Assembly: GCA_008632985.1 (NCBI GenBank) | Contig: QPGO01000183.1 | Span: forward strand, 62,001-126,000 | DNA: 64,000 bases | From: Psammoneis japonica | Taxonomy: Eukaryota | Reading direction: 5' to 3' | Shown: in pieces, positions 6,811-56,090 of the stretch | Layout of the letters: every line of letters starts with the position of its first letter | Position numbering within the stretch: position 1 is the stretch's first letter | Notes under the pieces: generated by a model | Seen by the model: only the letters and a program-made list of their open reading frames with translations | Told to the model about the DNA's origin: nothing | Database searches by the model: none | Made by a program: the position numbers and the translations under genes

Positions 6811-6944
6811 CTCTAGCACACAGGTGGTCTCTACGTGACCACCATTTTCGCGTTCATTTTCGAGAGGGTGTCTGGTGTCTACAGCACGAAAGTCATCCCG
6901 TTTACAGTTTACAGGGAAGTAAAACATTGCGCTCCATCCAAAAC

Positions 6945-25215: not shown

Positions 25216-26007
25216 CTAGGTATACTTCTTGTCGTGTTCATCAGCAGTCGATTCTTCCGTCTGAAGAGGTCGAAGGGTGTTTGTGTAGGTGTACCGACTA
25301 AACAGCACACTCAGTTTGCGATACCAAACAAATTGAGAATGATGCGTGGCCATGGCTTTCCACACGAGCCATGGTTGAAATAGACGGTAAACCACGACCT
25401 GGTGCTGTTGTTTGTTTTGACGTGTACATGTAAACGGATCCGTGCTATTGTCGGGTGATTTCGAGTACTTTCTCATCAACAGCTTATTGATGCACGCATG
25501 AAGCAACGCTACAACCACGTCCCCGAGCGCAAAGTATTTCAGTATCGGATTTGTGATTGTATCCAATTGCCATGCTTGTACGTTGAATTGTTTGTTGTTT
25601 TGACGTATAAACTGACAAATGCCCCTGAATACATGGACATGATTGACGTGTCCCGACACACCGCCCTCATCAAACGTTATAATCACATTTTGTCGCTCTT
25701 TGTTTCGTCCAACCAGCAATTTGTTTTCTAGATACCACTGAATCCGTTCCGCAACAACTTGATCAGACCAATGCTTTGTAGGATCATCTTGTAAAACATC
25801 GTCCACATGACTTTCTGAAATTTGGAGCAGCCGACACGCCTCGTGCAATTCTCGTGTGCGAATGCTTCCCAGCCCGTCGTAGTTGCCAGTCGTCAAGCAC
25901 AAGAGTGCCACGTCGTTTTGTTCCTCTGATAATTGAACGAGTGTTGGTAGAAAAAACATGGACTCGTCGTCCGGGTGAGCCGTCACGACAAGATAAAGCG
26001 GCGTCAT
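25216..26007 (-). CDS. PIGL: N-acetylglucosaminyl-phosphatidylinositol de-N-acetylase (GPI biosynthesis)
   Basis: AHPDDESMFF, LTTGNYDGLG..R..EL, ITFDEGGVSGHVNH and AMATHHSQFVWYRKL..LFSRY motifs. Confidence 0.92.
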   Translation of the reverse strand: MTPLYLVVTAHPDDESMFFLPTLVQLSEEQNDVALLCLTTGNYDGLGSIRTRELHEACRLLQISESHVDDVLQDDPTKHWSDQVVAERIQWYLENKLLVGRNKERQNVIITFDEGGVSGHVNHVHVFRGICQFIRQNNKQFNVQAWQLDTITNPILKYFALGDVVVALLHACINKLLMRKYSKSPDNSTDPFTCTRQNKQQHQVVVYRLFQPWLVWKAMATHHSQFVWYRKLSVLFSRYTYTNTLRPLQTEESTADEHDKKYT

Positions 26008-26029
26008 GGAGGAGTTCTAATGGCGCAGC

Positions 26030-32000: not shown

Positions 32001-32077
32001 CCTCGGGTTTAGATCTCACTTCCAGAAAAGTGGCATGATGTTGCAAGCCTTTCTTTTAGTCTTGTCACCAGTGCATG
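26030..32077 (+). mobile_element. Degenerate diatom-type Ty1/Copia retrotransposon with rearranged 3' end, TpA-erased
   Basis: gag-like DWPKTME..MIARAP and NWNFE...H.EQH; protease-like ELDGH; GRASANPISDTHACEVKFPDG..MFAQCDDEGNQCLLLD; KGWHLCV..ERLADLKECNPV; RT GCQHIKCHLVFNVK..RKARHAAGGH; RNase H ICHHAMRECAAMGE..PADLATK. Conserved Tyr positions read Cys or His. Confidence 0.85.
29810..32066. repeat. Tandem plus inverted duplications of the Copia RT-end/RNase H/LTR segment
   Basis: ~29810-30440 is repeated at ~30470-31110. Its minus-strand RNase H+LTR part recurs in + orientation at ~31610-32066. A purine tract gagaggac precedes tgaagaattt (~31928), and a partial LTR lies at ~31514-31607. Confidence 0.75.
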
Positions 32078-35000
32078 CCACCGCAGGGTGATTTGCTCAC
32101 ACATCATGGGTGGTTGAACAACCAAGTCAAGAATCGACTCAATCATTGCAGGCAGTGCAATGTCTCTTTTCTCAGCTCACTTTGGACTGCCCCTGTGCTC
32201 ACTCCAACAAAGCACTTTGCAGACAGGCTCAAGTTGGTGTCACTCTTGCTTTGGCATGCTGCCCTGCTTCTTCCATCATTCCAAAATGAGGTGGAATGCC
32301 CGCCTGCAATTTTTTGCCAAACTTTGATTTTTTTCTGGCAACAAGCGCTCAATTTTTGCGTGCAGACATTGGCACATGTTGCACCTTGCAATTGACACCA
32401 ACACACAGCCACAGAACTGCAACATGTGAAAAAAAGCATGTGCTCTGCATGCAAAAAACTGCTCAATGTGAAGAAAATTTTCCACGACTTGTTAAAACAC
32501 GCAACAACAGCAGTGGCTGCAGCTGCAATGTGCTCCATCAAGAATGACCATGAACTCACCATGGCACAAACACGCACCAATGATTCGTGATTGGCTTTGC
32601 ACACATGTGCCTTGCTGTGCCTTGAAGTTGATTGATCACAGCAAAAACAGCAAAAAAACATGTCTTTGCCCATCACTTTTTGACCACACAAAAGTCAACA
32701 ACAAGCCTGCTGCTGCACTCTCATGTGTCAATTCTGCTGCACATGAGTTCACCAGGTGCAACATTGAAGTGTGCAGCATGACTGGCAAAACCCACAAGGC
32801 ATGCAATTTGGAGACAGCTCTGTTGTGAGATCAAGATCTTTCATTGTGCTGACACCTGTTGCACAGAGTGTGTGGTGGCACTGAAAGCAAGCCATTGACA
32901 TCAAAAGCACCGTGCTCAAGTGTTGAGCAATGCAAGTGCCTGTGGGATCTGCACTTTCAAAAAATGTGTTGCAGCACTGGAGCACAATTGTTCGTGCATC
33001 ATTGCCTTCCAATGTGCCAATGGCGCCATTTGGTGGATTCAATCTGCAATTGAAATTTTAGACTGCCAGCAACCTGCAGCCAAAGAAGCACAAATGGACA
33101 GAAGTTTTGTTGCAGCACAGTGCATTTGCTCATCTGACAAGAGTTGTCAAAAATGACAGCTCTGATGGGAGGTTGCTGGACTCCTTGAGCATCTTGTTTG
33201 TTTCCACCAGTGCCATTGTGTGGTTTGAAAATGGGCTCATCTTGTGCAAAAGAGAGAGAGCTTTGGATGGTGGGCTGGCCAAAGTGCACAGGCAACTTGG
33301 AACAAGACATTGAGTCAGAAGAGCTGAAGGAAGCCTCTGCATTGCAGTGTGCTTGCCATGAAAAGAATTTTGGGCTGTGGGTGCACATGATCAATGTGAG
33401 GACATGAAGGACAAATTGATCCCAAACAGGAAGCAAGCATTGCTGAGGACCATTTGATGCAGCTGCGGCATTTTGTGAAAGTGCTTGACAATTTTGGTTG
33501 GGGCAAGCTGAGTTGGAAAGCAAGATGTCAGTTTGATGAAGTGCCTGAAACAGGCATGAACACAGCATCCTTGCACTCATTCTTGACAAAGTTGCAGAAG
33601 GGTTTGAAGGCTTTGTCTGATCCAGTCAGCAGAAAATTCCAACAGCAGACTTGCAGCTTGCCAGCTGAGCCTGTGCTTTGCAGCCAAGCAAGTTCACATC
33701 ATGCTCACGACAAAGAACATGAAGTGCATGGCTGCTCACAGCTCTTGCACAAGTTTTGTTTCATTGTGGTGGAGCGACATTTGTTGGCGCCCTTCATTTT
33801 TTTTCAACTGCATGACAATGTTGTTTGCACAAGGGCATGCTTCCCACAACTGAGATGTTGTTGCATTGTGAAGCACAGCCAAACTTTCAACTCCAACGAG
33901 GGCAGAGATGGGCAACTTCAGTGGATGCAAATGTTGGTTTTGCAAGCCAACCCTGGAATGGTTGATGCAGTGCTGCCATCATTTCAACAGTGTGGAAAAA
34001 GCTGTCACACAGCCAAGCAGCAGAAGAAGGGTGCATGCTGGCACAGACATGGCTGGGCAAAGGCTTCTGCATTGAACTGGAGGTGGACAAGATGGCAACA
34101 GGAGCACAACAACCTTGGCACCAACTTGGAGCCTCGAGACATCTTCAAGCTGTGCACAACAATGGCCAGGAGAAACAAGCAATGACAAATTATCCTGTGG
34201 CACACCAGGGTTTGAGACCAGCTCAGTGTGAGTTGGTGATCAATTTGTGCCCCACACTTTCTCACAATGAAACTCCCCCAGACTGCCCATTTTGCCTTTG
34301 CTGACAGATGTCGCACACTTTGCTTTTGAAGTCTTGCTCATGTGCTGGCCCTGCTTTTGTTGCCACCAACTGTTTCCGGCAGGCTCCACCACCTTGTGGC
34401 ATCAATCTTGACTCATTGTCACACACACCTCCTGCCACATCACATGATGCACTGGGGGTGTGGGCTGGCTTGTTCTTGACAAAGTTGCAAGTGAATTTCC
34501 TTCTGAGTCAATTTCCTGACTCTGCCATCTGTTTGCTTGGCACACAATTCACAGGTCAAGGTCAGAATCTGTCCTCAGAGCATGCTGCCAGAGTGTTGAA
34601 GCAGTGGCAGTGGCAAGCAGCACTCTGGCAAAAAATGAGGTTCTCCACAAATGGAGGCATTGTTGCTTTGAGAAGAGCAAAGCATCAGCCCCTCTCTCCA
34701 ACATTGGCACTGCATGGAAAGATGTTGGCACCAATGCAAAGGCTCTCTGCCTTGCCACTGGAGAAAATGACACACCAGGATTGAAGCAGAACAAGGAACA
34801 AATCAATGTGCACACAAAGACTCTCACAAATGACAATGCCTCTGGCAAAGGAGCAGCTCAAGGTGCTCACCACAATTTTGCCACATGGTGTCAAACCTCA
34901 TTTTGGACTGCTCTAAATGAAGCAAAATGAGTGAAGACAAATTTCGTGAGATGTTGATGCACATGCACCACCAGTGGCACCAAAAAGATGCAATCCACTG

Positions 35001-35368
35001 CAAGTGGGACCAGCTTCCAACCCCAACCCAAGCTCCAGTTGTGGGCAGAATGGGGACAAAAGGCCAGTGCAACAGCTGTGAGGGCAGAGACGAATCAAGA
35101 AAAAAGGGACCAAGCAGCAGTGCCAACCAGCTGAGATGGTTCAAATTGCCAGATGCACATGTGGCCACAGCAGTGAACTGCAAGCACAGCACCTCCAACC
35201 AACAGACAGCAGCATGCAGTGCTTCTGATGCAAGCACTTGGAGCTTGGCTCGGTGCAGTTTTTGGACCAGCATTCAGAGGTCATCCAGTGGCAAAGATGG
35301 CAAGAGATTGTGGCACACTTTGAGAATGCGCGAAGCAAGACATCCACGCATCTTGATGTTGCAGTGTG
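32078..35368. mobile_element. Unclassified degenerate TpA/CpG-depleted element (continues right of Gypsy copy 1)
   Basis: Near-total TpA loss. Segment ~34200-34490 is homologous to ~48790-49090. Confidence 0.5.
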
Positions 35369-35800
35369 TGCCCTGTGCATGCACCAGGCGCTGAAAAAGA
35401 AGATGTGTTACGACTCTGTCGTTGTGAAAATTATGAGCTAGTTTAGAGTAGAGAAAATGGGATCGTGCGAATAGGGAATCTTGCCAAATCCCTATTCGTT
35501 CGCATTTGGATCGTATTAAATCGATCGTGCGTTCGCATTGTGGATCGTGCGAATCAAGCCATCACGCGCCATGCACGAGTGATGTCATCGTGTGGAATCA
35601 CGCTACCATCGTGGGCCAGACGACGGGCTGGTGTGCTTCACACGGATGCTCTCTTAGCATCCTTCTGGAATTGCCCAAGACCTAGAGCCACGCCCTCCTG
35701 TGGTCGTGCTTCCCAGGTGCATGTTGACAACACTGCGTTGCCACGTGCAAGAGGCTCATGCACGGTCTCGCCGTGTTGTCCAGCAGCGAGGCATGCTGCA
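35369..35800 (-). repeat. 3' LTR of Gypsy copy 1
   Basis: tgccctg...gcatgctgca, 432 bp; retains several ancestral TpA at 35405-35520. Confidence 0.95.
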
Positions 35801-35883
35801 CACTCCCCCATGATCAGGGCCGTCAAGTGACAGAATGTCTCACTGGCGACAGGGTGCAATCTGCCGTAGATTGTGCGTGTCTG

Positions 35884-38862
35884 TCAGCGCTCCGTTCTGG
35901 ACACACAACGCGCAATGGACAAAACCGCATCGCGTCCGAAGACCAATTGCGCGGGACTTGCACGCGTGGTCGTGTGTGCTGCAGCTCTAACAGCGAAGGC
36001 CACTGCGGAGAGGATGCCACTCCATGGGTCATCTTCATCCAGTTCCACATCCTGCACTGAAAAGGAACGCACCATGTTGCCAAGTGTCTGGTGCACACGC
36101 TCCACTGTGGCACTCGCCTGTGGATTCCGTTTGCTTGTGGGTTTCTTCAAAATCCCACAGTCATTTTTAATCATCTGGCTAAATTCTGCCACAAATTCTG
36201 TCCCACGGTCATAAACCACCTGGGTTGGCCACGGATGTCTGCATGGCCAAGTTTGTTCTACGACGTTTGCCATGACGTCTGCGCGTTTCGCAGACACTTC
36301 TTTAATCTCGAACCACCCGGTTGCTGGGTCAATCATTGTGACTGCCCACAATTGCAAGGTGTCCTTTCTGCATCTTTGAATCTTGTGTGGCCCTGTCATG
36401 TCCATGCACAGAGTCTCCCATGGAATTGTCTCTGCGACCTTTTCTGGTGGCTTCCCACAACGCTGCGTTCGGCGTTTTGTCTTCTGGCATCGATCGCACC
36501 CAGCGCACGTGGAATGCACCGTAGACCTCACACTGGGCCAATGGAAGTGCTGGGCAACAGATGTTTCCGCACGTGTCTCACTTGGATGACACAGTGTCTC
36601 GTGGCGCCATTCAGTTGGCGGAACCTGCAATGACTGTGGTGCTGCGATTTTGTCCTTGTGACAGATTAACTGTCGTGATGACCCTCCCCCACGACACGCG
36701 CCAATGGAGCAGTCGGACGAGTCCTTGGCTCTTGAGAGCAGGCGCTTGTCCTTTTGTTGTGCTTTTTGAATGCGCTTGAAGCCAACAGGCAGAGATGGCT
36801 CATCTTGAGCATCTGCACCAAAGGCTTCATGCAAAGGACGACTCGATGGAGTGTCTTTTGCATCCGGATTGGCCTCGGAAGGCAAGCTGGTTGCTGGTCG
36901 AAGGTGACCAAGAGCGTCTGCGACCAGGTTGTGGGTGCCCTCAACATGACGTAATTCGGGACCGCATTCTTCGCATGTCAACCGCCAGCGCATGATGCGC
37001 TCGGCATTGAATGCTTTGTGTGCAAGATTTTTATGATCAGCACATGTGATCACACGATGACCAAGGAGAATCGTTCGAAATTCTTTCAACGTCTCCACAA
37101 TGGCGAGTGATTCTCTTTCCGTTGTTGCACAATTTAATTGCGCACTGTTGAGCTTTCTGCTGCAAAAGGCGACAGGTTTGTCATCTTGGGACATGGCTGC
37201 TCCCAGTTGACATTTAGAGGCATCGGCACGCATCTCAAAGGGTTTGTTAAAATCAGGATGTGACAGCAAAACATCATCCGATGTCACCCGTTTGACGGTT
37301 TCGAACACCTCGTCTTCAACGGACGTCCACTTCCACTTGACAGTCTCGCTTGCGAGCAGTGTCAGCGGAGCCAAGACTTCAGAACATCCAATCCACGTGT
37401 CGCGGCAGCAGCTCACCATGCCAACAAATGAACGCAGGTCGCGTTTGTTGGTTGGGGTCGCGATTCGCTCAATGGTGTCGACTTTGTTGGGCATTGGTCA
37501 CACTCCGTCTCTGTCAACCAGATGGCCCAAGCGCTCTAATTGGGTTTGACAGAAGTGAGATTTAGTTGCGTTAACTTTTAGTCCTGCTTTCTGGACCCTC
37601 AACAAAACTTCTTCAAGTTTGTTGAGGTGATCTTGGTGGGTGCCTTTTGTCGTGACGAGAAGGTCATCTAAGTGCGTTCGAACGAACGACAGATCTTCAA
37701 ATGAGCCTGACATGCGTTCTTGGAAAATGTCTGGCGAATTGCATGATCCCATGGGCAATGCCTGCATCTCATACTTGCCCCACGGGAAGATGAGCGTGCA
37801 GAGCTTCTTGCTGTCAGCATCCAATCGGATGTGATAACAGCCCATGTTTAAATCCAGCGATGTAGCCCACATAAAGCCTTCGAGCTTAAGTGGCACATCT
37901 TGGATATGAGGAATCGCATAAGGCAATCGCTTGATCCGTTTATTCAGCTCTCTGAAATCATTAATAAAGCGTACCGTTAAATCTTTCTTCGGTATGACGA
38001 ATGATGGAGCTGCCCATTGGGATCGGTTAACGCGTTTGAGAACACCGACACGTACTAGGCGTTCTACTTCTTTACGTAGCGTAGCTTCGTACGCACGAGG
38101 TACTTTATACGGACGAGCGTGGTATGGTTCTACACCCTCCTTGAGTTGGATATGGTAGGGTTCTCCCTTCCATTCTCCTAATGTCCCATCAAATAAGGAC
38201 TCATGGCGTTTCAATAGTGCCAAAAGGTCGTTTTGTTGAACTATAGAAAGTCTTATTGCCTCTCGCGTTATGTCCTCGAGGCAGGCCGGCGCGTACTTAG
38301 CGTCTAAAATACGCGAAATCCGGTCGGTTTCCGAAGATAAGGCTTCTGGATCTTGAAGATAGAAGGAGGTTTCCACCGTAGCATCTACGTGCCTCATTGG
38401 TACTTCTCCATTGACTAATGGCCACTCTATCATCTGTTTAGAGAAGACAATATCAATGCCTTGTGTCTCCAGAATGTCACGTCCAATAATCATATCGTAC
38501 TTGCCCAACTTTCCGTTGTGTACGTGGACGGTATGCTTAAGTTCTGCAGTTTCGTATAATTCTGGTAACCAAAATTTAACGGTACAGTCGTTAGACGTAC
38601 TAAACGAGCCTGCTACCGTAGTCCAGTTTGTCTCAGCCGTTGAATGGCTTCGCAGACGTTTACAGTGTCGACTGTCGAGTAGAGTGCTGCTGGCGCCACT
38701 ATCTAGTGGTGCCTTAATGGTTTGAGTCTTGCCCTTGCCATGTTTAGCATTCATAGCTGTAAACAAGATTGGAGTAAGATGAGTCTTTTTAACTCGTTTG
38801 CGGGATTGGCCTACAACACGTGTACGATGGCAATTCAGTTGTTCATTTGTACATTCATCCAA
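35884..38862 (-). pseudogene. Gypsy pol (protease, RT, RNase H, integrase), inactivated
   Basis: LDSGASS; WAAPSFVIPKKD..VRFINDFRELN; YxDD reads THLDD; ADASKCQLGA..TTERESLAIVE; integrase H..LCHP..C..CQ, MIDPATGWFE, YDRGTEF, NPQA.A.VERVH. Confidence 0.92.
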
Positions 38863-38898
38863 TGTGTTGAAACTACCTGCATCGTGTCGGCCCCCTTC

Positions 38899-39975
38899 TC
38901 AGGCATCCGAATCTTCGGAATCACTTAAGTTGAGGTCGCGGAAGTGACTGAGCTCCTCCTCGCAGGCCTTGCGCTTTTTCTGAGCGTTGGCAAAGCACTC
39001 CTCGACCTTCGATCCGATGAGAGCATTGACATCTTCCTCATTCCGAGGTTTTGCATTGGGCTTGCCGCCTCCGTTGTTGGAATGTCCAGTCTTGGCACAT
39101 TTCACGTGGTGCTTGAGCTGACGGCAATCTTCTGCATCATGTCCACAGTTGGTCCCGTGTGGCATGCACAACTTCTGGGCATTCCGCTGGGTCGTGATCA
39201 ACAGCTCAGGATTGTCCATTCTACATCCCCGCTTGCGTGGAACCTTGGCATGTTGGTCCTGGTTACCTTCGGCAAGCTCGACCTGCTTGATGCGCTCGCA
39301 GAACTGTGCAAATTCGGCGACAGCATGCGCCAACGGGTCAAAATTCTGCAGCGTCATGAACTTCTGCCATGCGCTCGGCACACCGCACTCGAACATGTCA
39401 CACAGCTCGTCATCAGGTGATGGTGCCGGTGTTTCTCCATCCTCCGTCACGGGTGGAAACTGAGAGATGCAGCCGTTAATTTCAACAGCCCTCGCCACGC
39501 AGTCACGAGTGGAAACCTCTGCGGGCTTGCGCACGAAGCGCCGCAGACAACGCTTCTGCAGCAGCACAGCCCTGTTTGGGAAGACACTTTCCTTTAGCTT
39601 CGCGACGCATGCTGCATGTGTGGCGTTGGTTTGGGATGCCTGCTTGTCAGCGGCATTGTCAAATGATGTCAGAGCATCGCCCTGCAGTGAGTCATGCACA
39701 AGGGCAAATTTCGCTGGCCCGGTGGTGATGTTTTGTCCTTCGTGCACGTGATCCACGTTGCGCAAAAAGATTGGGAGTGTCTCGCATGCAGCCGTGGAAA
39801 GGTGCGGGATGCCCATCTCGTGCATTGGACTGTCCGGATCAGCGGGGTTGTCGCGCAGCTTGAGCGTCTGGTGCTCGCCCTGCTGCAGCTCTTTCTTCTC
39901 CGGCCGTGCGAACGGAATCGGCGGCTCGGCCCGCTTCTTCATGGTCGTTTTGAGATTTGTCGGTCCCACCAACAT
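38899..39975 (-). pseudogene. Gypsy gag
   Basis: 358-aa Tyr-free ORF with R.LRRFVRKP and a C-terminal CxxH...H...C knuckle, upstream of pol. Confidence 0.8.
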
Positions 39976-40036
39976 TTCGCAGTTTCGTTTCTGTGGATTT
40001 CATCACCTCGCACAATGTGCGGGAGCAATGTCGCTG

Positions 40037-40468
40037 TGCCCTGCGCATGCACCAGGCGCTGAAAAAGAAGATGTGTCACGACTTTGTCGTTGTGAAAATT
40101 GTGAGCCAGTTTGGAGCAGAGAAAATGGGATCGTGCGAATGGGGAATCTTGCCAAATCCCCATTCGCTCGCATTTGGATCACATTGAATCGATCGTGCGC
40201 TCGCATTGTGGATCGTGAGAATCAAGCCATCACGCGCCATGCACAAGTGATGTCATCGTGTGGAATCACGCTGCCATCGTGGGCCAGACGACGGGCCAGT
40301 GTGCCCCACACGGATGCTCTCTTAGCATCCTTCTGGAATTGCCTGAGACCTGGAGCCACGCCCTCCTGTGGTCGTGCTTCCCAGGTGCGTGTTGACAGTG
40401 CTGCGTTGCCACGTGCAGGAGGCTTGTGCACGGTCTCGCCGTGTTGTCCAGTGGCAAGGCATGCTGCA
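40037..40468 (-). repeat. 5' LTR of Gypsy copy 1
   Basis: 432 bp, matches the other three LTRs. Confidence 0.95.
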
Positions 40469-40999
40469 TGTGTGACGCCAGCGCTCATGATGTTGTGTGC
40501 AATCATGACAAGGTCCAGGAAGGGCATTGTCAGAGTTGGCCAGTCAAAACTGCGAACATGATTTGCAACGGCACTGTCAAAACAGTGGTGAATCTCCCGA
40601 GTGATGCAAAGGACTTTGTGTTCATTCAATTGGAGTTTGAGGAATTGAAAAGTTTTTCTGTCAAGAGTCTGATCGAACTTTTGCTGGCTGACAGTGAGGT
40701 GTCAAAGAGGTTGACTCTGGCTGTGGGTGCCCGGGGTGTGAGAATTTTGTCTCATCTGTTGGATGCCACAATTGAGCCACAAAACAGAATGGGGATGCTG
40801 TGCAAACAAATTCTTCTGTCACTGCACTCTGCCAGTGCACCTGCGACTGAGCTCACAGGAGCAACAACAAAGCAGTTGCTCCCATGGTGATGTTGTTCTG
40901 AACAGAATCTGGATCATCCACGCAGAGGTGCTGGCATTTGGGCAGGCTGCATTTCTTGAAAAAGAGTTTTGCATTCTGATGGGTCATGTCATGTGGGGC

Positions 41000-41900
41000 T
41001 AAACAGCGAGCACAAAACAAACCACATTCGCGACCAAAGCCGCAGTGCTTCATTCCAGGCTTGCAGACACTGAACACCAGCTCATTTGGAGAGAACTGGG
41101 GAAGTGCATTGCAGTGCAGACAAGCACACCATTTGAGCCATGGATGGTTGCACTGTCCATGATTGCAGTGAAGTGTGGTTCATCAAGGTCACACCATCCA
41201 AGGACAGGCACAAGCATTTTCTCAACACACCACTGTTCGAAGCAGGCCATGTCCACAGCATTGTGGGTGGGATCTTTGTCACAGGATGACTCAATCACAA
41301 AACCATTTGCATCACAAGCAGCAATCAGCATGAATCGTTTCCGAAAGTCTTCCTTGAAGAACACGTCCATGACAGGAGTCAATCCCCTGGAACTCCATGA
41401 AAGCCCGCACCGCGCTTCGTTGGCCGGCTTGTGGCTGTTTCAACTGCAAAAATGAACTGATGTGGGTCATTCACGGCATCTTGAAGACGAGGTTGGCAAT
41501 TGTCCATCTCAATTTGCAGCTGTTGCTTGGCACGGAAGACGGCCACTTGAAGGGAGTGACCCAGTTTCTTGAGCCAATGCCAACAAAGTGCTGCAATGCC
41601 GCAATTTGTTGCACTCACAACATGACATGATGGCTTGCATCTCATCCAGATGGAGCTGAAGAAACACAGCAATGATCTTTTTCAAACAAACATCATCTGC
41701 TTTGTTGGAAGACAAGCCCCACTGACCCTTGCCGCGGTTTCTCCTCTTGCCTTCGGCCGGTGTCTCTCCAAATTGAAGATGTCGTTGAAACTCTTCTTGA
41801 CATTTTATTGCATTGCCTCCCACTCTTGCACCCACAATTCAAAGCTTTGTGGCCTGCAATCTTGAGTGCCTTGTTGATTGCCTCGTGCTGGATGTTGCGG
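41000..41900 (-). pseudogene. IS630/Tc1-family DDE transposase remnant, TpA-erased
   Basis: LHLDEMQA, WLKKLGHS, QFIFAVET (cf. FxDET), RFMLIAACDANGF and FEQWCVEKMLVPVLG...IMDSATIH (cf. MDNAxIH), spread across frameshifted ORFs. Confidence 0.7.
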
Positions 41901-42911
41901 TCATCAATGACGCCGCCGCCACCTCGGGTGTGCTCCCCACGCTGGCAGTGGAAGCCTGACAAAGGAAATGCACCTTCCACATGCTCAAGATCCGGTCACT
42001 GGCTTCCAATGCTCCCACCACCTTGGTTGATTGGCGCATCACCACAACAGCTGAGAAAGGCAGGAAAGGAGTCGATGCATGCTGCAGTTGGCGCGAAAGA
42101 TCCTTGCTCTTGACAGACCCGACCAAAGGCACATCCAAGAGAGAATGATCTTTTTGCAATTGTGAAAAGGACATTAGATCAAAAGAATGTTGAGCAAAGA
42201 GATGAAATGAACAAATGACATCAAAGCATGGGTCAGCGACAATCACAAATGGCTGGTGCAAGACCACGCCAGTGCACAGCCGACATTTCTCACCACAAAT
42301 CACATGGAAAATGTGCCCAAGGCAAGGGACACTTTTTGCATCTATGATGAAGAGACAAAACCAAAGGCAAGCAACAGAGGAGGTGCATTGGATGAATGCA
42401 CATCAAAGCATGGGTCGTGTCAACTCCATGTTTTTGGGTGTTTCTTGTCGATGCGAGAGAACGATGATGTTTCTCGACACACAGCCCACACCCACATCAC
42501 ACACCCCATGGCATGGGACACCACCTTTCGTGACCATGGTGAGTTGACACCAGCAATGGGCATCATCAGATGAGGTGAAAGGAAAACAAAGATCAAAGCA
42601 TGGGTTTTGCCTCTCAGAAATGGCTGACAACAGCAAAAAGACCCACGTTTTGATGTCTGCACAACCACAACTCCGTTTCTCGCCAAACCAAGGGCCTCAC
42701 CTGACAATCAGACCTCACAAAAGCAATGTCCACGTCGAACAAACACGATGAAGAACAGCTCAAACAAGGCCGAGCATCGGTCGGTGCTGCGTCATCAAAA
42801 AACAAAAAATCACGCTCCGGAAATAAAAGCGCTCGCATGCATGGTGTGGTTGAACTAGCGAATCGCTCGACTGCATTGACTCAATCGACTTCATCTTCTT
42901 CGACGCATGCA

Positions 42912-49500: not shown

Positions 49501-50446
49501 CAGCAGATTGACCTTTTGTCTGCAGTCAAACTGTCACTCCCTGACCCCACCACATCAAGGGCAACCTTGACTTGATTGAGGCACTCCATTTGGCTCTTTT
49601 GATTGGAACAAGGAAAAGGACTCAGAGCACCATTCTTGTGGAACTTTTCAACAGACTCCATGGCATCAGGGAAGGAAAGTTGAGCAACAAGCAGTGGAGA
49701 TGAAGAAGAGGGATCGTCAAAGGATGGGAGTGATTCAGAAAAGGAAAAGAGCTGACAAACAACTGCGCCAACATGTGCCGCTCCTGCTCTTCTCAGCCCA
49801 AGGGTGCAAGCACTCCAGCAGCTCAGTCCAAACCCTTTTGAAAGTTGATGCTTCCATGGAAGACTTGTTGTCAAGCAGTTTTGGATGCATTGAACCCAAC
49901 TCTTCATGCTTGTTGCAAGCAAGCTTTTGTGTGTTTTTGTCTGGACTGCTTGGTCTTGTTGGTCATCTTACAAAGCTGCTTGGAAGGACTGTCAATTGCA
50001 TGCAACCATGCTGCCAACAACAAGGAGGAGACACTTTGAGACTTGCATTTCAGATTCTTTGCCCCATGCATGCACCAGGCGCTGAAAAAGAAGATGTGTT
50101 GCGACTTTGTCGTTGTGAAAATTGTGAGCTAGTTTAGAGCAGAGAAAATGGGATCGTGCGAACAGGGAATCTTGCCAAATCCCCATTCGCTCGCATTTGG
50201 ATCGCATTGAATCGATCGTGCGTTCGCATTGTGGATCGTGCGAATCAAGCCATCATGCGCCATGCACGAGTGATGTCATCGTGTGGAATCACGCTGCCAT
50301 CGTGGGCCAGATGACGGGCTGGTGTGCTTCACATGGATGCTCTCTTGGCATCCTTCTGGAATTGCCCAAGACCCAGAGCCACGCCCTCCTGTGGTCGTGC
50401 TTCCCAGGTGCGTGTTGACAACACTGCGTTGCCATGCACAAGAGGC

Positions 50447-53400
50447 TCATGCACGGTCTCGCCATGTTGTCCAGCAGCGAGGCATGCTGCACACTCCCCC
50501 ATGATCAGGGCCGTTGAGCGACAGAATGTCTTGCTGGTGACAGGGTGCAATCTGCCGCAGATCATGCGCATCTGTCAGCGCTCCGTTCTGGATGCGCAAC
50601 GTGCCATTGTCATGTGCACGGACAACTCTGGCGGGTCCTGCACAGCTGTCAGAACCGCATTTAGAGGGTTGTTCCTGTTTGACAAGTGCCAATTGCCCTG
50701 CGGTGTGTTGACACTCCTTGCGTTTCTGATTTTCACGCTTGTTGTTTGAGTGGACAAGCTTCTGCTTTCTGGCTTCTGTGTGCTTCCACTTGGCACGATG
50801 GGCAACAGACAAAACCGCATCACGTCCGAAGACCAATTGCGCGGGACTTGCACGCGTGGTCGTGTGTGCCGCAGCTCTGATGGCGAAGGCTGCTGCGGAG
50901 AGGATGCCACTCCATGGGTCATCTTCGTCCAGCTCCACATCCTGCACTGAAAAGGAGCGCACCATGTTGCCAAGTGTCTGGTGTGCACGCTCCACTGTGG
51001 CATTTGCCTGTGGACTCCGTTTGCTCATGGGTTTCTTCAAAATCCCACAGTCATTTTTAATCATCTGGCCAAATTCTGCCACAAATTCTGTCCCACGGTC
51101 ACAAACCACCTGGGTTGGCCACGGATGTCTGCATGGCCACGTTTGTTCCACGACGTTTGCTGCGACGTCTGCACGTTTCGCAGACACTTCTTCAATCTCG
51201 AACCACCCGGTTGCTGGGTCAATCATTGTGACTGCCCACAATTGCAAGGTGTCCTTTCCGCGTCTTTGAATTTTGTGTGGCCCCATGACATCTGTGCATG
51301 GAGTTTCCCATGGAATTGTCTCTGCGACCTTTTCTGGCAGCTTCCCATGACGCTGCGTTCGGCGTTTTGTCTTCTGGCATCGATCGCACTTGACGCACGT
51401 AGAATGCACCGTAGACCTCATGCCAGGCCAACAGAAGTGCTGGGCAATGGATGTTTCCGTGCATGTCTCACCTGGATGACACGGTGTCTCGTGGCGCCAT
51501 TCAGTCAGCGGAACCTGCAATGACTGTGGCACTGCGATTTTGTCCTTGTGACAGATTGACTGTCGTGATGACCCTCCCCCACGACACGCGCGAATGGAGC
51601 AGTCGGACGAGTCCTCAGCTCTTGAGAGTGGGCGCTTGTCCTTTTGTTGTGCTTTTTGAATGCGCTTGAAGCCAATGGGCAGAGATGGCTCATCTTGAGC
51701 GTCTGCATTAAAGGCTTCATGCAAAGGACGACTCGATGGAGTGTCTTTTACATCCGGACTGGCCTCGGAAGGCAAGCTGGGTGCCAGTCGAAGGCGACTG
51801 AGAGCGTCAGCGACTGGGTCATGGGCACCCTTGACACAGCGTAATTCGGGGCCGCATTCTTCGCATGTCAACCGCCAGCGCATGACGCGCTCGGCATTGA
51901 ATGCTTTGTGCACAAGATTTTTGTGATCAGCGTGTGTGATCATGCGATGACCAAGGAGAATCGTTCGAAATTCTTTCAACGTCTCCACAATGGCGAGCAA
52001 TTCTCTCTCCGTTGCTGCACAATTCAGTTGCGCACCATTGAGCTTTCTGCTGCAAAAGGCGACAGGTTCATTGTCTTGGGACACAACTGCTCCCAATTGA
52101 CATTTAGAGGCATCGGCATGTGTCTCAAAGGGTTTGTTGAAATCAGGATGTGACAACAAAACATCATCCGACATTGCCCGTTTGACGGTTTCGAACGCCT
52201 CGTCTTCAACGGACGTCCACTCCCACTCAACAGTCTTGCTTGCGAGTCGTGTTGGCGGAGCCAAGGCTTCAGAATGTCTGATCCACGTGTCGCGGCAGTG
52301 GCTCACCATGCCAACAAATGAATGCAGGTTGCGTTCATTGGCTGGGGTCGCGATTCGCTTGATGGCGTCGACTTTGTCAGGCATTGGTCGCATTCCGTCT
52401 CTGTCAACCAGACAACCCAAGCACTCTAATTGGGTTTGACAGAAGTGAGATTTAGTTGCGTTGACTTTCAGCCCTGCTTTCTGGACCCTCAATGAAACTT
52501 CTTCAAGTTTGTTGAGGTGATCTTCACAGGTGCCTTTCGTCACAACGAGAAGGTCATCTAAGTGCGTTCGAACGAACGACAGATGTTCAAATGAGCCTGA
52601 CATGCGTTCTTGGAAAATGTCTGGCGAGTTGCACAATCCCATGGGCAATGCCTGCATCTCATGCTTGCCCCACGGGAAGATGAGCGTGCAGAGCTTCTTG
52701 CCATCAGCATCCAATCGGACATGACAACAGCCCATGTTTAAATCCAGCGATGTGGCCCACACAAAGCCTTCGAGCTTGAGCAGCATGTCTTGGACATGAG
52801 GAATCGGACAAGGCAATCACTCAATCCGTTTGTTCAGCTCTCTGAAATCATTGACAAAGCGCACCGTCAAATCTTTCTTCGGCATGACAAATGATGGAGC
52901 TGCCCATTGGGATCGGTTGACGCGTTTGAGAACACCGATGCGTGCCAGGCGCTCCACTTCCTTGCGCAGCGCAGCTTCGCACGCACGAGGCACTTCACAC
53001 GGACGAGCGTGGCATGGTTCTGCACCCTCCTTGAGTTGGACATGGCAGGGTTCTCCCTTCCATTCTCCTGATGTCCCATCAAACAAGGACTCGTGGCGTT
53101 TCAATGGCGCCAAAAGGTCGTTTTGTTGAACCACAGAAAGTCTCATTGCCTCTCGCGTCATGTCCTCGAGGCAGGCCGGCGCGTGCTTGGCATCCAAAAT
53201 GCGCGAAATCTGGTCGGTTTCCGAAGACAAGGCTTCTGGATCTTGAAGACAGAAGGAGGTTTCCACCGTGGCATCTGCGTGTCTCATTGGCGCTTCTCCA
53301 TTGACTGATGGCCACTCTGTCATCTGTTTGGAGAAGACAACATCAATGCCTTGTGTCTCCAGAATGTCGCGCCCAACAATCATGTCGCACTTGCCCAACT

Positions 53401-53707
53401 TTCCGTTGTGTGCATGGACGGCATGCTCAAGTTCTGCAGTTTCGGACAACTCTGGCAACCGAAATTTAATGGTGCAGTCGTTGGACGTGCCAAACGAGCC
53501 TGCTGCCGCAGCCCAGTTTGTCTCAGCCATTGAATGGCTTCGCAGACATTTGCAGTGTCGACTGTCGAGCAGAGTGCTGCCAGCGCCACTGTCCAGCAGT
53601 GCCTCAATGGCTTGAGTCTTGCCCTTGCCATGTTTGGCATTCACAGCCACAAACAAGATTGGAGCAAGATGAGTCTTTTTAACTCGTTTGCGGGATTGCG
53701 ATGGCAA
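50447..53707 (-). pseudogene. Gypsy pol of copy 2, Tyr-free, reading through into the 3' LTR
   Basis: LLDSGAGS, THLDD, THADASK and CDRGTEF motifs. The 789-aa and 296-aa ORFs contain no Tyr. Confidence 0.92.
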
Positions 53708-53772
53708 TTCAGTTGTTCATTCGCACATTCATCCAATGCATTGAAACTGCCTGTGTCGTGTCGGCCCCCTTC

Positions 53773-54833
53773 TCAGGCGCCTGAATCTTCGGAATCACTT
53801 GAGTTGAGGTCGCGGAAGTGATTGAGCTCCTCCTGGCGGGCCTTGCGCTTTTTCTGAGCGTTGGCAAAGCACTCCTCGACCTTCGATCCGATGAGAGCAT
53901 TGACATCCTCCTCATTCCGAGGTTTTGCATCAGGCTTGCCGCCTCCGTCATTGGAATGTTCAGTCTTGACACGTTTCACGTGGTGCTTGAGCTGACGGCA
54001 ATCTTCCGCATCATGTCCACAGTTGGTCCCGTGCGGCATGCACGACTTCTGGGTGTTCCGCTGGGTCGTGATCAACAGCTCAGGATTGTCCATTCTACGT
54101 CCCTGCTTGCGTGGAACCTTGGCATGTTGGTCCTGGTTACCTTCGGCAAGCTCGACCTGCTCGATGCGCTCGCAGAACTGTGCAAATTCGGCGACAGCAT
54201 GCGCCAACGGGTCAAAATTCTGCAGCGTCATGAACTTCTGCCATGCGCTTGGCACACCACACTCAAACATGTCGCACAGCTCGTCATCAGGTGACGGTGC
54301 CGGTGTTTCTCCATCCTCCGTCACGGGTGGAAACTGAGAGATGCAGCCGTTAATTTCAAGTCACGAGTGGAAACCTCTGCGGGCTTGTGCATGAAGCGCC
54401 GCAGACAACGCTTCTACAGCAGCACAGCCCTGTTTGGGAAGACACTTTCCTTTAGCTTCGCGACGCATGCTGCATGCATGGCGTTGGTTTGGGATGCCTG
54501 CTTGTCAGCGGCATTGTCAAATGATGTCAGAGCGTCGCCCTGCAGTGAGTCATGCACAAGGGCAAATTTCGCTGGCCCGGTGGTGATGTTTTGTCCTTCG
54601 TGCACGTGATCCACGTTGCGCAGAAAGATTGGGAGTGTCTCGCATGCAGCCGTGGAAAGGTGCGGGATGCCCATCTCGTGCGTTGGACTGTCCGGATCAG
54701 CGGGGTTGTCACGCAGCTTGAATGTCTGGTGCTCGCCCTGCTGCAGCTCTTTCTTTTCCGGCCGTGCGAACGGAATCGGCGGCTCAATCCACTTCTTCAT
54801 GGTCGTTTTGAGATTTGTCGGTCCCACCAACAT
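53773..54833 (-). pseudogene. Gypsy gag of copy 2 (frameshifted)
   Basis: Near-identical to the copy-1 gag, split by a 16-nt deletion. Confidence 0.8.
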
Positions 54834-56090
54834 TTCGCAGTTTCGTTTCTGTGGATTTCATCACCTCGCACAATGTGCGGGAGCAATGTCGCTGTGCCCT
54901 GCGCATGCACCAGGCGCTGAAAAAGAAGATGTGTCACGACTTTGTCGTTGTGAAAATTGTGAGCCAGTTTGGAGCAGAGAAAATGGGATCGTGCGAATGG
55001 GGAATCTTGCCAAATCCCCATTCGCTCGCACTTGGATTGCATTGAATCGATCGTGCGCTCGCATTGTGGATCGTGCGAATCAAGCCATCATGCACCATGC
55101 ACGAGTGATGTCATCGTGTGGAATCACGCCACCATCGTGGGCCAGACGACGGGCCAGTGTGCTTCACACGGATGCTCTCTCAGCATCCTTCTGGAGTTGC
55201 CTGAGACCTGGAGCCACGCCCTCCTGTGGCCGTGCTTCCCAGGTGCGTGTCAACAACACTGCGTTGCCACATGCAAGAGGCTTGTGCACGGTCTCGCCGT
55301 GTTGTCCAGCAGCGAGGCACACTGCATCTTTGCAGAAAAGCACCAAATTGCGTGGGAGCACCACTCAGATGCCCCAGCAACAACACATGCCAAGAGCATC
55401 AAAAGAAGGGGCTGGCATTCATGAGACCAAACCATGGCTGAATGTAAAAACAGTGCATTTTTCAACATTGTTGATCAATCTCAGTTGGGCCAAGTTGACC
55501 ACAACACCTTCAGTCTCTTGTTGGCAGTGCAAGCAGCCACAGCAGCAGTCATTGGGCTGGTGCTCCATTGGCCCAAGGCAAGCAAATGATGGGCCAAGCA
55601 GCTGACAAAATGAGGATCCTTTGATTGGCAAAGGAGGCACATGACATTTCATGATGAAATGGAGAGCTTTTGCCCTGTGCTGTGGGTCCTGCATCCTGGT
55701 TCTTGGTTGTGGCTGCCCCACATGTGGTTGCCCATCTCTGCACGTCAACAACATGGGGCAGAGCCATGGTGTTTGGCCAAAACACCAACACTCCACCACT
55801 CTTCAACATGCATGCAGCCAATGACTGGCCAAGATGTTGTCCTTTCAAGTGCGCGCTTGTGTCTGCTCTCTGGCCCACCACCTGTTCTTTGCTTGGGTCA
55901 ACACATCGCCATTGTCAGTGTGTTGTTGAGTGTTTCAACAGCCTTTTTTGTGCGAGCTGCGAGCTAGCTTTTGTTGCAGCGTGCGCCCCCCGTACGGTAG
56001 AATTCTACAGGCGAATCTTTGAGTTCAACACGTCAGCCAATCGCGATGTCAACAATAAGGTGTCAAGAAATCTTCGTTTTATATTCCACC

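What the first reader, a model, noticed from the sequence alone, without database searches (positions are those of the whole stretch)
37770..38880. A ~1.1-kb largely unmutated island inside an otherwise TpA-erased element
Copy 1 keeps most ancestral TpA and Tyr across protease-RT (EPYHARPYKVPRAYE vs EPCHARPCEVPRACE in copy 2), while its gag and integrase are nearly TpA-free. A smaller spared patch lies at 35405-35520. The process therefore acts in tracts or episodes, or the island was restored by conversion from an intact copy. The island is also the internal control that proves the ancestral state was TpA and not CpG.
Basis: partly seen in the sequence, partly recalled or inferred. Interest (0 to 1): 0.8.

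Follow-up and report, generated by a model that had tools for sequence, protein, structure and literature searches.

The report
Unmutated patch in a TpA-erased retrotransposon
A jumping gene in what looks like a diatom genome has had nearly all its T-A steps rewritten to C-A or T-G, except for one 1.1-kb stretch that shows what the original looked like and shows that the rewriting acts unevenly along the DNA.

Summary
Observation confirmed. The island lies in a minus-strand Ty3/gypsy LTR retrotransposon (35369-40468). It holds 79 TpA in 1,111 bp, against 37 in the other 3,989 bp (binomial 2e-26). A second copy (50060-55326) reads CpA (43) or TpG (29) where the island reads TpA. Forty outgroup proteins show that the island state is ancestral. 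The process resembles TpA-directed A:T>G:C change acting on DNA. It hits both strands without strand runs, prefers T-A-pyrimidine, and is confined to transposon DNA. The host genes look diatom-like. The only report of this signature I found is a 2026 preprint on Bigelowiella natans. The island is not explained by sequence context: 40 of 49 retained core sites are favourable targets, and the same stretch is erased in copy 2. Its edges are graded and interleaved. Best reading, 0.45: regional escape from the process in a young, polymorphic insertion. Rivals: recombination or conversion with an intact copy (0.30), assembly chimera (0.12), and editing during reverse transcription (0.07). No spanning reads and no genome-wide copies were available, so the choice stays open.

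The parts
35365..35368 (.). Target-site duplication TGTG, left copy
   Evidence: Junction read-out. One contig of run X1 joins 35364 directly to 40469, which is the precise empty site (table 5).
35369..35800 (-). 3' LTR of copy 1 (TG...CA ends), 12 TpA left
   Evidence: Self-BLAST at 92.2% to 40035-40468, LTR alignment, TpA counts.
35405..35520 (-). Small spared patch in the 3' LTR: 9 TpA against 0 in the matching 5' LTR stretch
   Evidence: At 35517 the window's T is C in 53,290 of 57,567 summed depth of run X1.
35884..37497 (-). RNase H and integrase frame, TpA-erased (14 TpA in 35801-37497)
   Evidence: Pfam RT_RNaseH_2, RT_RNaseH, Integrase_H2C2 and rve; rve scored 29.7 bits, below its cut-off of 32.6. 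There are 54 CA-versus-TG discordant sites against copy 2 (108 nucleotides).
37498..38898 (-). Protease and reverse-transcriptase frame (466 codons), ended by a copy-1-private TGA at 37498-37500
   Evidence: Pfam RVT_1, E = 2.6e-19. ORF list. At 37500, X1 contigs read G in 4,200.6 of 4,200.6 depth.
37770..38880 (-). The island: 79 TpA in 1,111 bp, the ancestral state
38053..38680 (-). Island core: an unbroken run of informative sites that all keep TpA in copy 1
   Evidence: Site list. In the slightly wider core window 38051-38684, 49 sites are retained (40 in a favourable context) and none is mutated.
38899..39999 (-). Gag-like frame with no Pfam match, TpA-erased (5 TpA in 38881-40034). Its CA/TG states are almost all shared with copy 2.
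40037..40468 (-). 5' LTR of copy 1, 1 TpA left
40469..40472 (.). Target-site duplication TGTG, right copy
50060..55326 (-). Copy 2 of the same family, flanked by its own duplication TCTT, erased along its whole length (21 TpA)

Best explanation
The island is a stretch of a young Ty3/gypsy insertion that has so far escaped a DNA-level process converting TpA to CpA or TpG in transposon DNA of this genome. That process has nearly finished on the rest of the element.

Shown here:
- The ancestral state was TpA.
- The changes fall on both strands, site by site, with a preference for T-A-pyrimidine.
- The island cannot be explained by site context or by the sequence of that stretch.

Inferred: the process reaches DNA in domains or episodes of a few hundred bases to a kilobase, guided by some local state of the copy such as chromatin, methylation or guide RNA. 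The core has had no exposure, the margins about one partial exposure, and the flanks several.

The enzyme is unknown. An adenine deaminase of the tRNA-editing TadA/ADAT2 type acting on DNA is the leading candidate, but that is a candidate only.
For: Polarity.

Signature:
- 395 transitions against about 14 transversions between the copies.
- 340 of 408 differences lie in pyrimidine-purine steps.
- No strand runs: 39 runs against 35.6 +/- 4.0 expected.
- 3' neighbour of the mutated A, wins/losses: C 24/5, T 19/12, G 15/23, A 8/26.
- Surviving TpA in erased DNA have purine 3' neighbours on both strands in 54 of 82 cases, against 19 of 79 in the island (p = 1.2e-7).

DNA level:
- The two LTRs of one element differ by CA-versus-TG discordances: 5 sites in copy 1 and 13 in copy 2.
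- Both residual TpA of 34001-35000 (34191 and 34914) read CpA in run X1.

Not context:
- In the core, 40 of 49 retained sites are favourable and none is mutated.
- Outside the island, retained sites are mostly unfavourable: 22 of 37, against 16 of 71 for mutated sites (p = 2.5e-4).
- Copy 2 is erased across the same stretch: 72 sites.
- The estimated dose is at least 20-28 times lower in the core than in the flanks.

Graded edges: retained and mutated sites alternate at 4-40 bp spacing in 37770-38050 and 38685-38880.

Young copy:
- Run X1 holds the precise empty site.
- Copy 1 keeps more TpA than copy 2 outside the island too: 24 sites against 4.
Against: - No reads span the island, so its place in this copy is unverified (laid contigs only).
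- The LTR pattern means some DNA-level exchange between copies has to be assumed anyway. The 5' LTRs of both copies share states at 13 columns (10 sites), against 1 column for grouping by copy. That raises the prior for conversion.
- The spared 115-bp patch sits at the very end of the element, which a simple 'spreading inward from both ends' picture does not predict.
- In the margins, the test of whether favourable sites went first is not significant: 9 of 11 mutated against 16 of 23 retained (p = 0.68).
- Only two copies of a family with hundreds of copy-equivalents could be compared (depth).
Confidence: 0.45

Rival explanations
1. The island comes from recombination with an intact family member. 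This could be ectopic gene conversion of an erased copy by an intact one (restoration). It could be conversion of an originally intact young copy by erased donors everywhere except the island. Or reverse transcriptase could have switched between a co-packaged erased RNA and an intact RNA.
For: - LTR site patterns group the two 5' LTRs together and the two 3' LTRs together: 13 columns against 1 and 1. Both copies are independent insertions with their own target duplications, TGTG and TCTT. Canonical reverse transcription makes both LTRs alike (recalled knowledge), so DNA-level exchange is needed.
- A block of about 1.4 kb (about 38950-40365, gag plus most of the 5' LTR) has almost no CA/TG discordance between the copies, while pol has 54 discordant sites.
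- The island (1.1 kb) and the LTR patch (115 bp) are of conversion-tract size.
- The family is abundant, and no island place appears among the listed places where X1 wholly lacks the window's letter (313 rows were not shown), so intact donors may exist.
Against: - Margins interleave retained and mutated sites at 4-40 bp spacing. Conversion normally co-converts neighbouring markers (recalled knowledge).
- Non-TpA divergence between the copies is about even along the element: island 2.0%, RH-integrase 3.1%, gag 2.9%. No segment looks recently imported.
- Template switching cannot explain the 34 differences between the two LTRs of copy 1.
- No donor sequence was available.
Confidence: 0.3
2. The island is an assembly or polishing chimera. 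On this reading the true copy is erased throughout, and reads from intact copies elsewhere imposed their bases on this stretch.
For: - The family has summed contig depth of 11,000-50,000 against about 60 for single-copy flanks, so mis-mapping is possible.
- Site-by-site majority calls would also give interleaved margins.
- Only 0.47 of the sampled 31-letter words of 35000-41000 occur in the best run.
Against: - The assembly keeps minority states elsewhere in this copy. At 35517 the window's T is held by about 7% of depth. At 36500, 36503, 36511, 36891, 36919, 37500, 39095, 39099, 39374 and 39864 the window's letter is absent from X1 contigs. So the copy was not generally pulled to the family majority.
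- A 5.1-kb element at about 91% identity to its neighbour should be resolvable by long reads (inference).
- The same kind of patch occurs in the 3' LTR.
Confidence: 0.12
3. The changes were made during retrotransposition, on RNA (ADAR-like) or on single-stranded cDNA. The island would then be a stretch protected in that intermediate, as in the gradients that APOBEC3G leaves around polypurine tracts in HIV (recalled knowledge).
For: - A 5' T (U) next to the edited A resembles the ADAR neighbour preference cited in the B. natans preprint.
- The island lies near the middle of the element, where a central priming site could sit (inference only).
Against: - Both strands are hit, 43 against 29, with no strand runs.
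- The 3' neighbour preference is pyrimidine, not G.
- The two LTRs of each copy differ by independent CA/TG choices.
- Old flanking DNA that is single-copy by depth still differs at TpA between the window and X1.
- In B. natans the same signature arises de novo in chromosomal DNA of culture lines.
Confidence: 0.07
4. Reversed polarity: the element was TpA-poor, and the island was made TpA-rich by a RIP-like C>T process at CpA.
For: On its own, TA in one copy against CA or TG in the other is exactly what RIP would produce.
Against: - Outgroups have Tyr where the island has Tyr and copy 2 has Cys or His, and copy 1 matches the consensus 27 to 6.
- The island frame is open over 466 codons with Trp and Gln intact.
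- The YxDD Tyr just outside the island reads His in both copies.
- 63 CA-versus-TG discordant sites elsewhere need a palindromic ancestor.
Confidence: 0.01

Closest known systems
TpA-restricted A:T>G:C hypermutation of integrated viral DNA in Bigelowiella natans (Mettrop et al., bioRxiv 10.64898/2026.01.13.699255). I read the abstract, Results and Discussion and ran term look-ups. I did not see the supplements.
   Same: - TpA>TpG and TpA>CpA almost exclusively.
- Confined to foreign or mobile DNA.
- Leaves TpA-poor, CpA+TpG-rich clusters, and reverse-transcriptase domains are enriched among TpA-depleted genes.
- Episodic: seen in only some culture lines.
   Different: - The host here looks like a diatom (Stramenopila), not a chlorarachniophyte.
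- The targets here are LTR retrotransposons and unidentifiable old repeats.
- Erasure here is near complete (TA observed/expected 0.00-0.12), against 0.45 for the viral region there.
- In my term look-ups the preprint's main text had no occurrence of retrotransposon, conversion or 'neighbo'.
Repeat-induced point mutation (RIP) of fungi
   Same: A DNA-level, dinucleotide-specific, transition-only process that disables repeats. It is known to be patchy along a repeat (recalled knowledge).
   Different: The direction is opposite. RIP turns CpA into TpA and makes DNA AT-rich. Here TpA is destroyed and GC rises. Flank DNA that is single-copy by depth also differs from run X1 at its two residual TpA, so duplication may not be the trigger.
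ADAR and APOBEC editing of retroelements
   Same: Deaminase-type transitions that cripple retroelements. ADAR has a 5' U preference (cited).
   Different: Those act on RNA or on one cDNA strand and are fixed only through a new insertion. Here both strands are hit without strand runs, LTR pairs diverge, and the 3' preference is pyrimidine.
TadA/ADAT2 tRNA adenosine deaminases and TadA-derived base editors
   Same: The natural substrate is A34 after the invariant U33. For bacterial TadA this is U-A-C, and early base editors preferred Y-A-C (recalled knowledge, not tested). Here the target is T-A, with C or T favoured at 3'. Four of the six non-TpA changes in the island are N-A-C on the element's sense strand.
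   Different: No enzyme was examined, because the genome is not held. Eukaryotic ADAT2/3 substrates mostly have G or A after A34 (recalled knowledge), which does not match the preference seen. A thymine-oxidation route would give the same symmetric signature.

Membership tests
Ty3/gypsy (Metaviridae-type) LTR retrotransposon | Two direct LTRs with TG...CA ends, flanked by a short target-site duplication | tested here: met
   LTRs of 432 bp at 92% identity. TGTG on both sides of copy 1 and TCTT on both sides of copy 2. Precise empty site in run X1.
Ty3/gypsy (Metaviridae-type) LTR retrotransposon | Domain order protease-RT-RNase H-integrase in one reading direction | tested here: met
   RVT_1, then RT_RNaseH_2/RT_RNaseH, then Integrase_H2C2 and rve on the minus strand; rve scored 29.7 bits, below its cut-off of 32.6. 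Relatives carry aspartyl-protease families upstream of RT.
Ty3/gypsy (Metaviridae-type) LTR retrotransposon | Primer-binding site after the 5' LTR and polypurine tract before the 3' LTR | tested here: inconclusive
   A purine run, GGGGGAG, lies just before the 3' LTR in both copies. No tRNA-complementary site was recognised after the 5' LTR.
TpA-directed A:T>G:C hypermutation of foreign DNA (B. natans type) | Changes are almost only A>G and T>C, and fall on TpA | tested here: met
   In the island, 72 of 117 differing nucleotides are TA against CA/TG, and 21 more are CA-versus-TG discordances. Polarity from outgroups. 395 transitions against about 14 transversions overall.
TpA-directed A:T>G:C hypermutation of foreign DNA (B. 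natans type) | Confined to foreign or mobile DNA and spares host genes | tested here: met
   TA observed/expected is 0.00-0.31 over most of 26001-42500 and 47001-56000, the island excepted, against about 0.3-0.9 in gene-bearing parts. Borders are sharp at 100-bp resolution.
TpA-directed A:T>G:C hypermutation of foreign DNA (B. natans type) | Acts on chromosomal DNA after integration | tested here: met
   Indirect evidence. LTR pairs of one element show independent CA/TG choices. Both residual TpA of the old flank differ between the window and run X1.
TpA-directed A:T>G:C hypermutation of foreign DNA (B. natans type) | Arises de novo, episodically, in culture lines | not testable with these tools
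   Needs mutation-accumulation lines or pedigrees of this organism.
Fungal RIP | C>T at CpA, producing a TpA excess in repeats | tested here: not met
   Repeats here lack TpA and are enriched in CpA+TpG at 1.5-2.2 times expectation. The ancestral state is TpA.
ADAR-type RNA hyperediting fixed by retrotransposition | A>G on one strand only, with a 3' G preference | tested here: not met
   43 against 29 on the two strands, no runs. 3' G loses 23 of 38 contests.
Gene-conversion tract | A continuous tract in which all markers switch together to the donor's state | tested here: inconclusive
   The core is continuous (38053-38680), but the margins interleave. No donor copy was available. Exchange between copies is implied by the LTR patterns.

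The most novel reading that the evidence does not exclude
Diatoms, like the unrelated alga Bigelowiella, may run a 'reverse-RIP' genome defence. In this reading an enzyme system is aimed at silenced transposon DNA and rewrites T-A-pyrimidine to C-A or T-G on double-stranded chromosomal DNA. It would act domain by domain, about 0.2-1 kb at a time. The island would then be a live boundary of that targeting signal inside one young insertion. That would make the size and cause of the targeting unit (nucleosome array, methylation patch or guide-RNA footprint) directly measurable. It would also mean that LTR-divergence dating in these genomes is grossly inflated.
Probability: 0.35. Interest if true: 0.85.

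Novelty: new member of a known kind. Interest (0 to 1): 0.62.

Why it matters
- A TpA-specific, GC-increasing hypermutation aimed at mobile DNA has so far been described only once, in a 2026 preprint on a rhizarian alga. Finding the same signature in a diatom-like genome, carried almost to completion on LTR retrotransposons, suggests a widespread defence that has been overlooked. It also appears in 4 of 59 related metagenome loci.
- The island gives three things the erased DNA cannot: the ancestral sequence, the site preference (T-A-pyrimidine), and evidence that exposure differs at least 20-fold over a few hundred bases within one element.
- LTR pairs here differ by about 8% mostly through this process. 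Insertion ages from LTR divergence, and repeat-family clustering, would therefore be badly biased in such genomes.
- TpA loss removes TAA and TAG stop codons, which creates long false ORFs in all frames.

Tried and rejected
- Whole-genome search for other copies: no genome is held for this window.
- Public runs: no RNA holder is listed. The three runs laid are contigs only, none spans the element, and 313 difference rows were not shown. Per-site family frequencies in the island therefore could not be read.
- Protein searches for same-family copies: the best hits were 58-62% identical in the near length range and at most 74% among short proteins. None is usable as a family copy.
- Viral-contig scan: no relative found.
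- Scan notes: nothing found by place, words or sequence.
- Purine/pyrimidine-recoded alignment of the flanks of the two copies: scores were close to shuffled controls, so it was not informative. Ordinary BLAST found only one 265-bp flank match at 71%.
- Pfam on 20 frames of the older TpA- and CpG-poor DNA: one sub-threshold match and nothing usable.
- Strand-coordination test: negative.
- Test of whether favourable sites mutated first in the margins: not significant.
- CpG loss as a clock for the age of the island: the four candidate copy-1 losses in the core are synonymous or unresolved, and could equally be off-target A>G or T>C gains in copy 2.
- RIP-like reversed polarity: rejected.
- One literature query failed on term syntax and was not repeated.
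Full report
SETTING. The window is eukaryotic, and no whole genome is held for it. Long intron-free frames encode ordinary host proteins: a DegP-type protease, a P-type ATPase, LRR and DENN proteins, and dehydrogenases. For the protease frame the best named relatives are diatoms: Amphora coffeaeformis at 65%, then Thalassiosira, Cylindrotheca and Skeletonema. A second gene's nearest atlas cluster is commonest in Bacillariophyta. A first atlas look gave plant-type DegP clusters. I therefore treat the host as diatom-like. This is an inference from two genes.

ANATOMY.
- Copy 1 is a minus-strand Ty3/gypsy element at 35369-40468.
- It has 432-bp LTRs (35369-35800 and 40037-40468; 92% identical) with TG...CA ends and a TGTG target duplication on both sides.
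- One reading direction carries a gag-like frame with no Pfam match, then protease-RT (RVT_1), then RNase H and integrase domains.
- Copy 2 (50060-55326, 91% identical) has its own duplication, TCTT, so the two are independent insertions.
- In run X1, one 1,065-bp contig at single-copy depth (61.9) runs from 34382-35364 straight into 40469, which is the precise empty site. Copy 1 is therefore absent from at least one haplotype or strain.
- The family is abundant: summed contig depth is 11,000-50,000 over the element, against about 55-63 on the flanks.

- The island has 79 TpA in 1,111 bp. The rest of copy 1 has 37 in 3,989 bp, and copy 2 has 21 in 5,266 bp.
- A uniform spread gives 1.8e-26 for such a concentration. 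In 2,000 random placements the fullest window of that size held at most 45.
- Against copy 2, the island shows TA versus CA at 43 sites and TA versus TG at 29.
- Sites where copy 1 kept TA versus sites where it mutated are 72:11 inside and 24:75 outside (p = 4.9e-18).
- From 38053 to 38680 every informative site keeps TA.
- The LTR patch at 35405-35520 has 9 TpA against 0 in the other LTR.
- No other TpA-rich tract exists in the roughly 26 kb of TpA-poor DNA of this window.

POLARITY. I aligned the protease-RT frame with 40 relatives at 50-59% identity. At 46 conserved columns where the copies differ, copy 1 equals the outgroup consensus at 27, copy 2 at 6, and neither at 13. All 8 conserved Tyr columns are Tyr in copy 1 and Cys or His in copy 2. 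Just outside the island, outgroup Tyr is replaced in both copies, and the YxDD Tyr reads His. The island frame is open, with Trp and Gln codons intact. TpA is therefore ancestral, and a RIP-like origin of the island is excluded.

THE PROCESS.
- Differences between the copies are 395 transitions and about 14 transversions. Of 408 differences, 340 lie in pyrimidine-purine steps.
- Outside the island there are 63 internal sites where one copy has CA and the other TG. This is the mark of independent resolution of a palindromic ancestor.
- Both strands are hit, and the order of outcomes shows no strand runs: 39 runs against 35.6 +/- 4.0 in the island, and 45 against 41.1 +/- 4.4 for discordant sites.
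- Which adenine of a TpA is changed depends on its 3' neighbour. Wins/losses are C 24/5, T 19/12, G 15/23, A 8/26.
- TpA that survive in erased DNA have purine 3' neighbours on both strands in 54 of 82 cases, against 19 of 79 in the island and 30 of 304 in host genes. Survivors with a 3' T number 6 of 82. The target is therefore T-A-pyrimidine.
- Of the six non-TpA T>C changes from copy 1 to copy 2 in the island, four are N-A-C on the element's sense strand.

EVIDENCE FOR ACTION ON CHROMOSOMAL DNA.
- The two LTRs of one element carry independent CA/TG choices: 5 sites in copy 1 and 13 in copy 2.
- The old flank at 34001-35000 keeps only two TpA, and both, at 34191 and 34914, read CpA in X1.
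- The erased state is not peculiar to this assembly. X1 contigs match the TpA-free flanks with 3 differences in 381 letters and 4 plus one gap in 984.
- Four of 59 related metagenome loci are also TpA-poor: L027 at 0.10, L040 at 0.16, L045 at 0.04 and L046 at 0.22. L027 and L040 (82% identical) differ at 28 CA-versus-TG sites.
- Older repeats at 26001-35364, 40473-42700, 47001-50055 and 5550-6900 lack CpG as well as TpA. The two gypsy copies still have CpG at 0.7-1.0 of expectation. TpA loss therefore seems to run faster than CpG loss.

WHAT THE ISLAND IS NOT.
- It is not a run of poor target sites. In the core, 40 of 49 retained sites have a pyrimidine 3' neighbour on at least one strand, and none is mutated. 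Outside the island, retained sites are mostly poor targets: 22 of 37, against 16 of 71 of the mutated sites (p = 2.5e-4).
- It is not protected by its sequence, because copy 2 lost 72 of these sites.
- The implied dose in the core is at least 20-28 times lower than in the flanks. This is a rough estimate, because sites mutated alike in both copies are invisible.
- The edges are graded. In 37770-38050 and 38685-38880, retained and mutated sites alternate at 4-40 bp spacing.

UNEXPLAINED HISTORY.
- Gag plus most of the 5' LTR (about 38950-40365) is erased in both copies, with almost the same CA/TG choices: about 4-5 discordant sites per 1.15 kb. RNase H-integrase has 54 per 1.7 kb.
- Non-TpA divergence is about even along the element: island 2.0%, RH-integrase 3.1%, gag 2.9%.
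- Across the four LTRs, 13 columns (10 sites) group the two 5' LTRs against the two 3' LTRs. One column groups by copy and one groups the other way.
- Ordinary reverse transcription gives a new copy two identical LTRs (recalled knowledge). The pattern therefore needs exchange between chromosomal copies, or an assembly effect.
- I could not tell whether a common ancestor was already a mosaic (erased gag, intact pol) or whether a block was homogenised later.

EXPLANATIONS.
1. Regional escape from an in-place process (0.45). This fits the context-blind sparing, the graded interleaved margins, the generally lesser erasure of copy 1, its polymorphic and hence probably young status, and the episodic behaviour reported for B. 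natans.
2. Recombination or conversion with an intact copy (0.30). This fits the LTR pattern and the tract sizes, but not the interleaved margins or the even non-TpA divergence.
3. Assembly chimera (0.12). This could not be tested. The copy does keep many minority or private letters elsewhere.
4. Editing during retrotransposition (0.07). This is contradicted by strand symmetry, LTR divergence and the changing flank.
5. Reversed polarity (0.01). This is refuted.

COMPARISON WITH WHAT IS KNOWN.
- The one matching report I found is the bioRxiv preprint 10.64898/2026.01.13.699255. I read its abstract, Results and Discussion and ran term look-ups. I did not see its supplements.
- In Bigelowiella natans culture lines, 231 of 302 new mutations fall in two integrated viral regions. 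They are almost all A>G or T>C, all on TpA, and occur only in some lines. TpA-poor clusters and reverse-transcriptase domains mark older targets, and an ADAT2 homologue is proposed.
- In my term look-ups, that text had no occurrence of diatom, stramenopile, retrotransposon, conversion or 'neighbo'.
- My searches combined diatom with TpA and retrotransposon; diatom with RIP, LTR retrotransposons and dinucleotide; TpA dinucleotides with hypermutation, deaminase and TpG; and 5-hydroxymethyluracil with diatom. I also ran a term look-up in a 2025 preprint on diatom transposons. None found a diatom report.
- The match of T-A-pyrimidine to the U33-A34-C35 loop of the bacterial TadA substrate, and to the Y-A-C preference of early base editors, is recalled knowledge and is a lead only.

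LIMITS. Only two copies could be compared. Contigs cannot phase the island. Concordantly mutated sites are invisible. The host assignment rests on two genes.

Noticed in passing
26001-35364, 40473-42700, 47001-50055, 5550-6900: Older DNA around both gypsy copies lacks both TpA and CpG (observed/expected mostly 0.00-0.11 and 0.04-0.5), with CpA+TpG at 1.6-2.2 times expectation. Twenty long frames gave no usable Pfam match. The absence of TAA and TAG stops creates long false ORFs in several frames.
   Followed up: partly
34191 and 34914: The only two TpA left in 34001-35000 both read CpA in contigs of run X1. Among the listed flank differences, three (34204, 34609, 41419) are CpG against CpA.
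   Followed up: partly
35364/40469: Run X1 holds a contig with the precise empty site of copy 1 (one TGTG) at single-copy depth, so the insertion is polymorphic or heterozygous.
   Followed up: partly
35369-35800, 40037-40468, 50060-50491, 54893-55326: The 5' LTRs of the two independent insertions share states at 13 columns against the two 3' LTRs. Only 1 column groups by copy. This is not expected from retrotransposition.
   Followed up: partly
38950-40365 versus copy 2: Gag and most of the 5' LTR are erased with nearly the same CA/TG choices in both copies, while pol was erased independently. Either a mosaic ancestor was copied, or a block was homogenised.
   Followed up: partly
37498-37500; position in copy 2 matching 37927-37929: Each copy has its own CGA>TGA nonsense change. 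In copy 1 it ends the protease-RT frame, and X1 contigs read G at 37500 in all depth. In copy 2 it replaces an Arg conserved in 40 of 40 outgroups.
   Followed up: partly
L027, L040, L045, L046: Four of 59 metagenome loci with related elements are TpA-poor (0.04-0.22). L027 and L040, at 82% identity, differ at 28 CA-versus-TG sites. The same signature therefore occurs in other, unidentified organisms.
   Followed up: partly
29786-32103: Units of about 500-650 bp are repeated directly and inverted (81-87% identity) inside the old erased region.
   Followed up: no
50607-50794 (copy 2): Copy 2 carries about 199 extra bases between the integrase end and the 3' LTR that copy 1 lacks. Copy 1 carries 16 extra bases near 38809-38826 and 16 more in gag (39367-39616 bin).
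   Followed up: no
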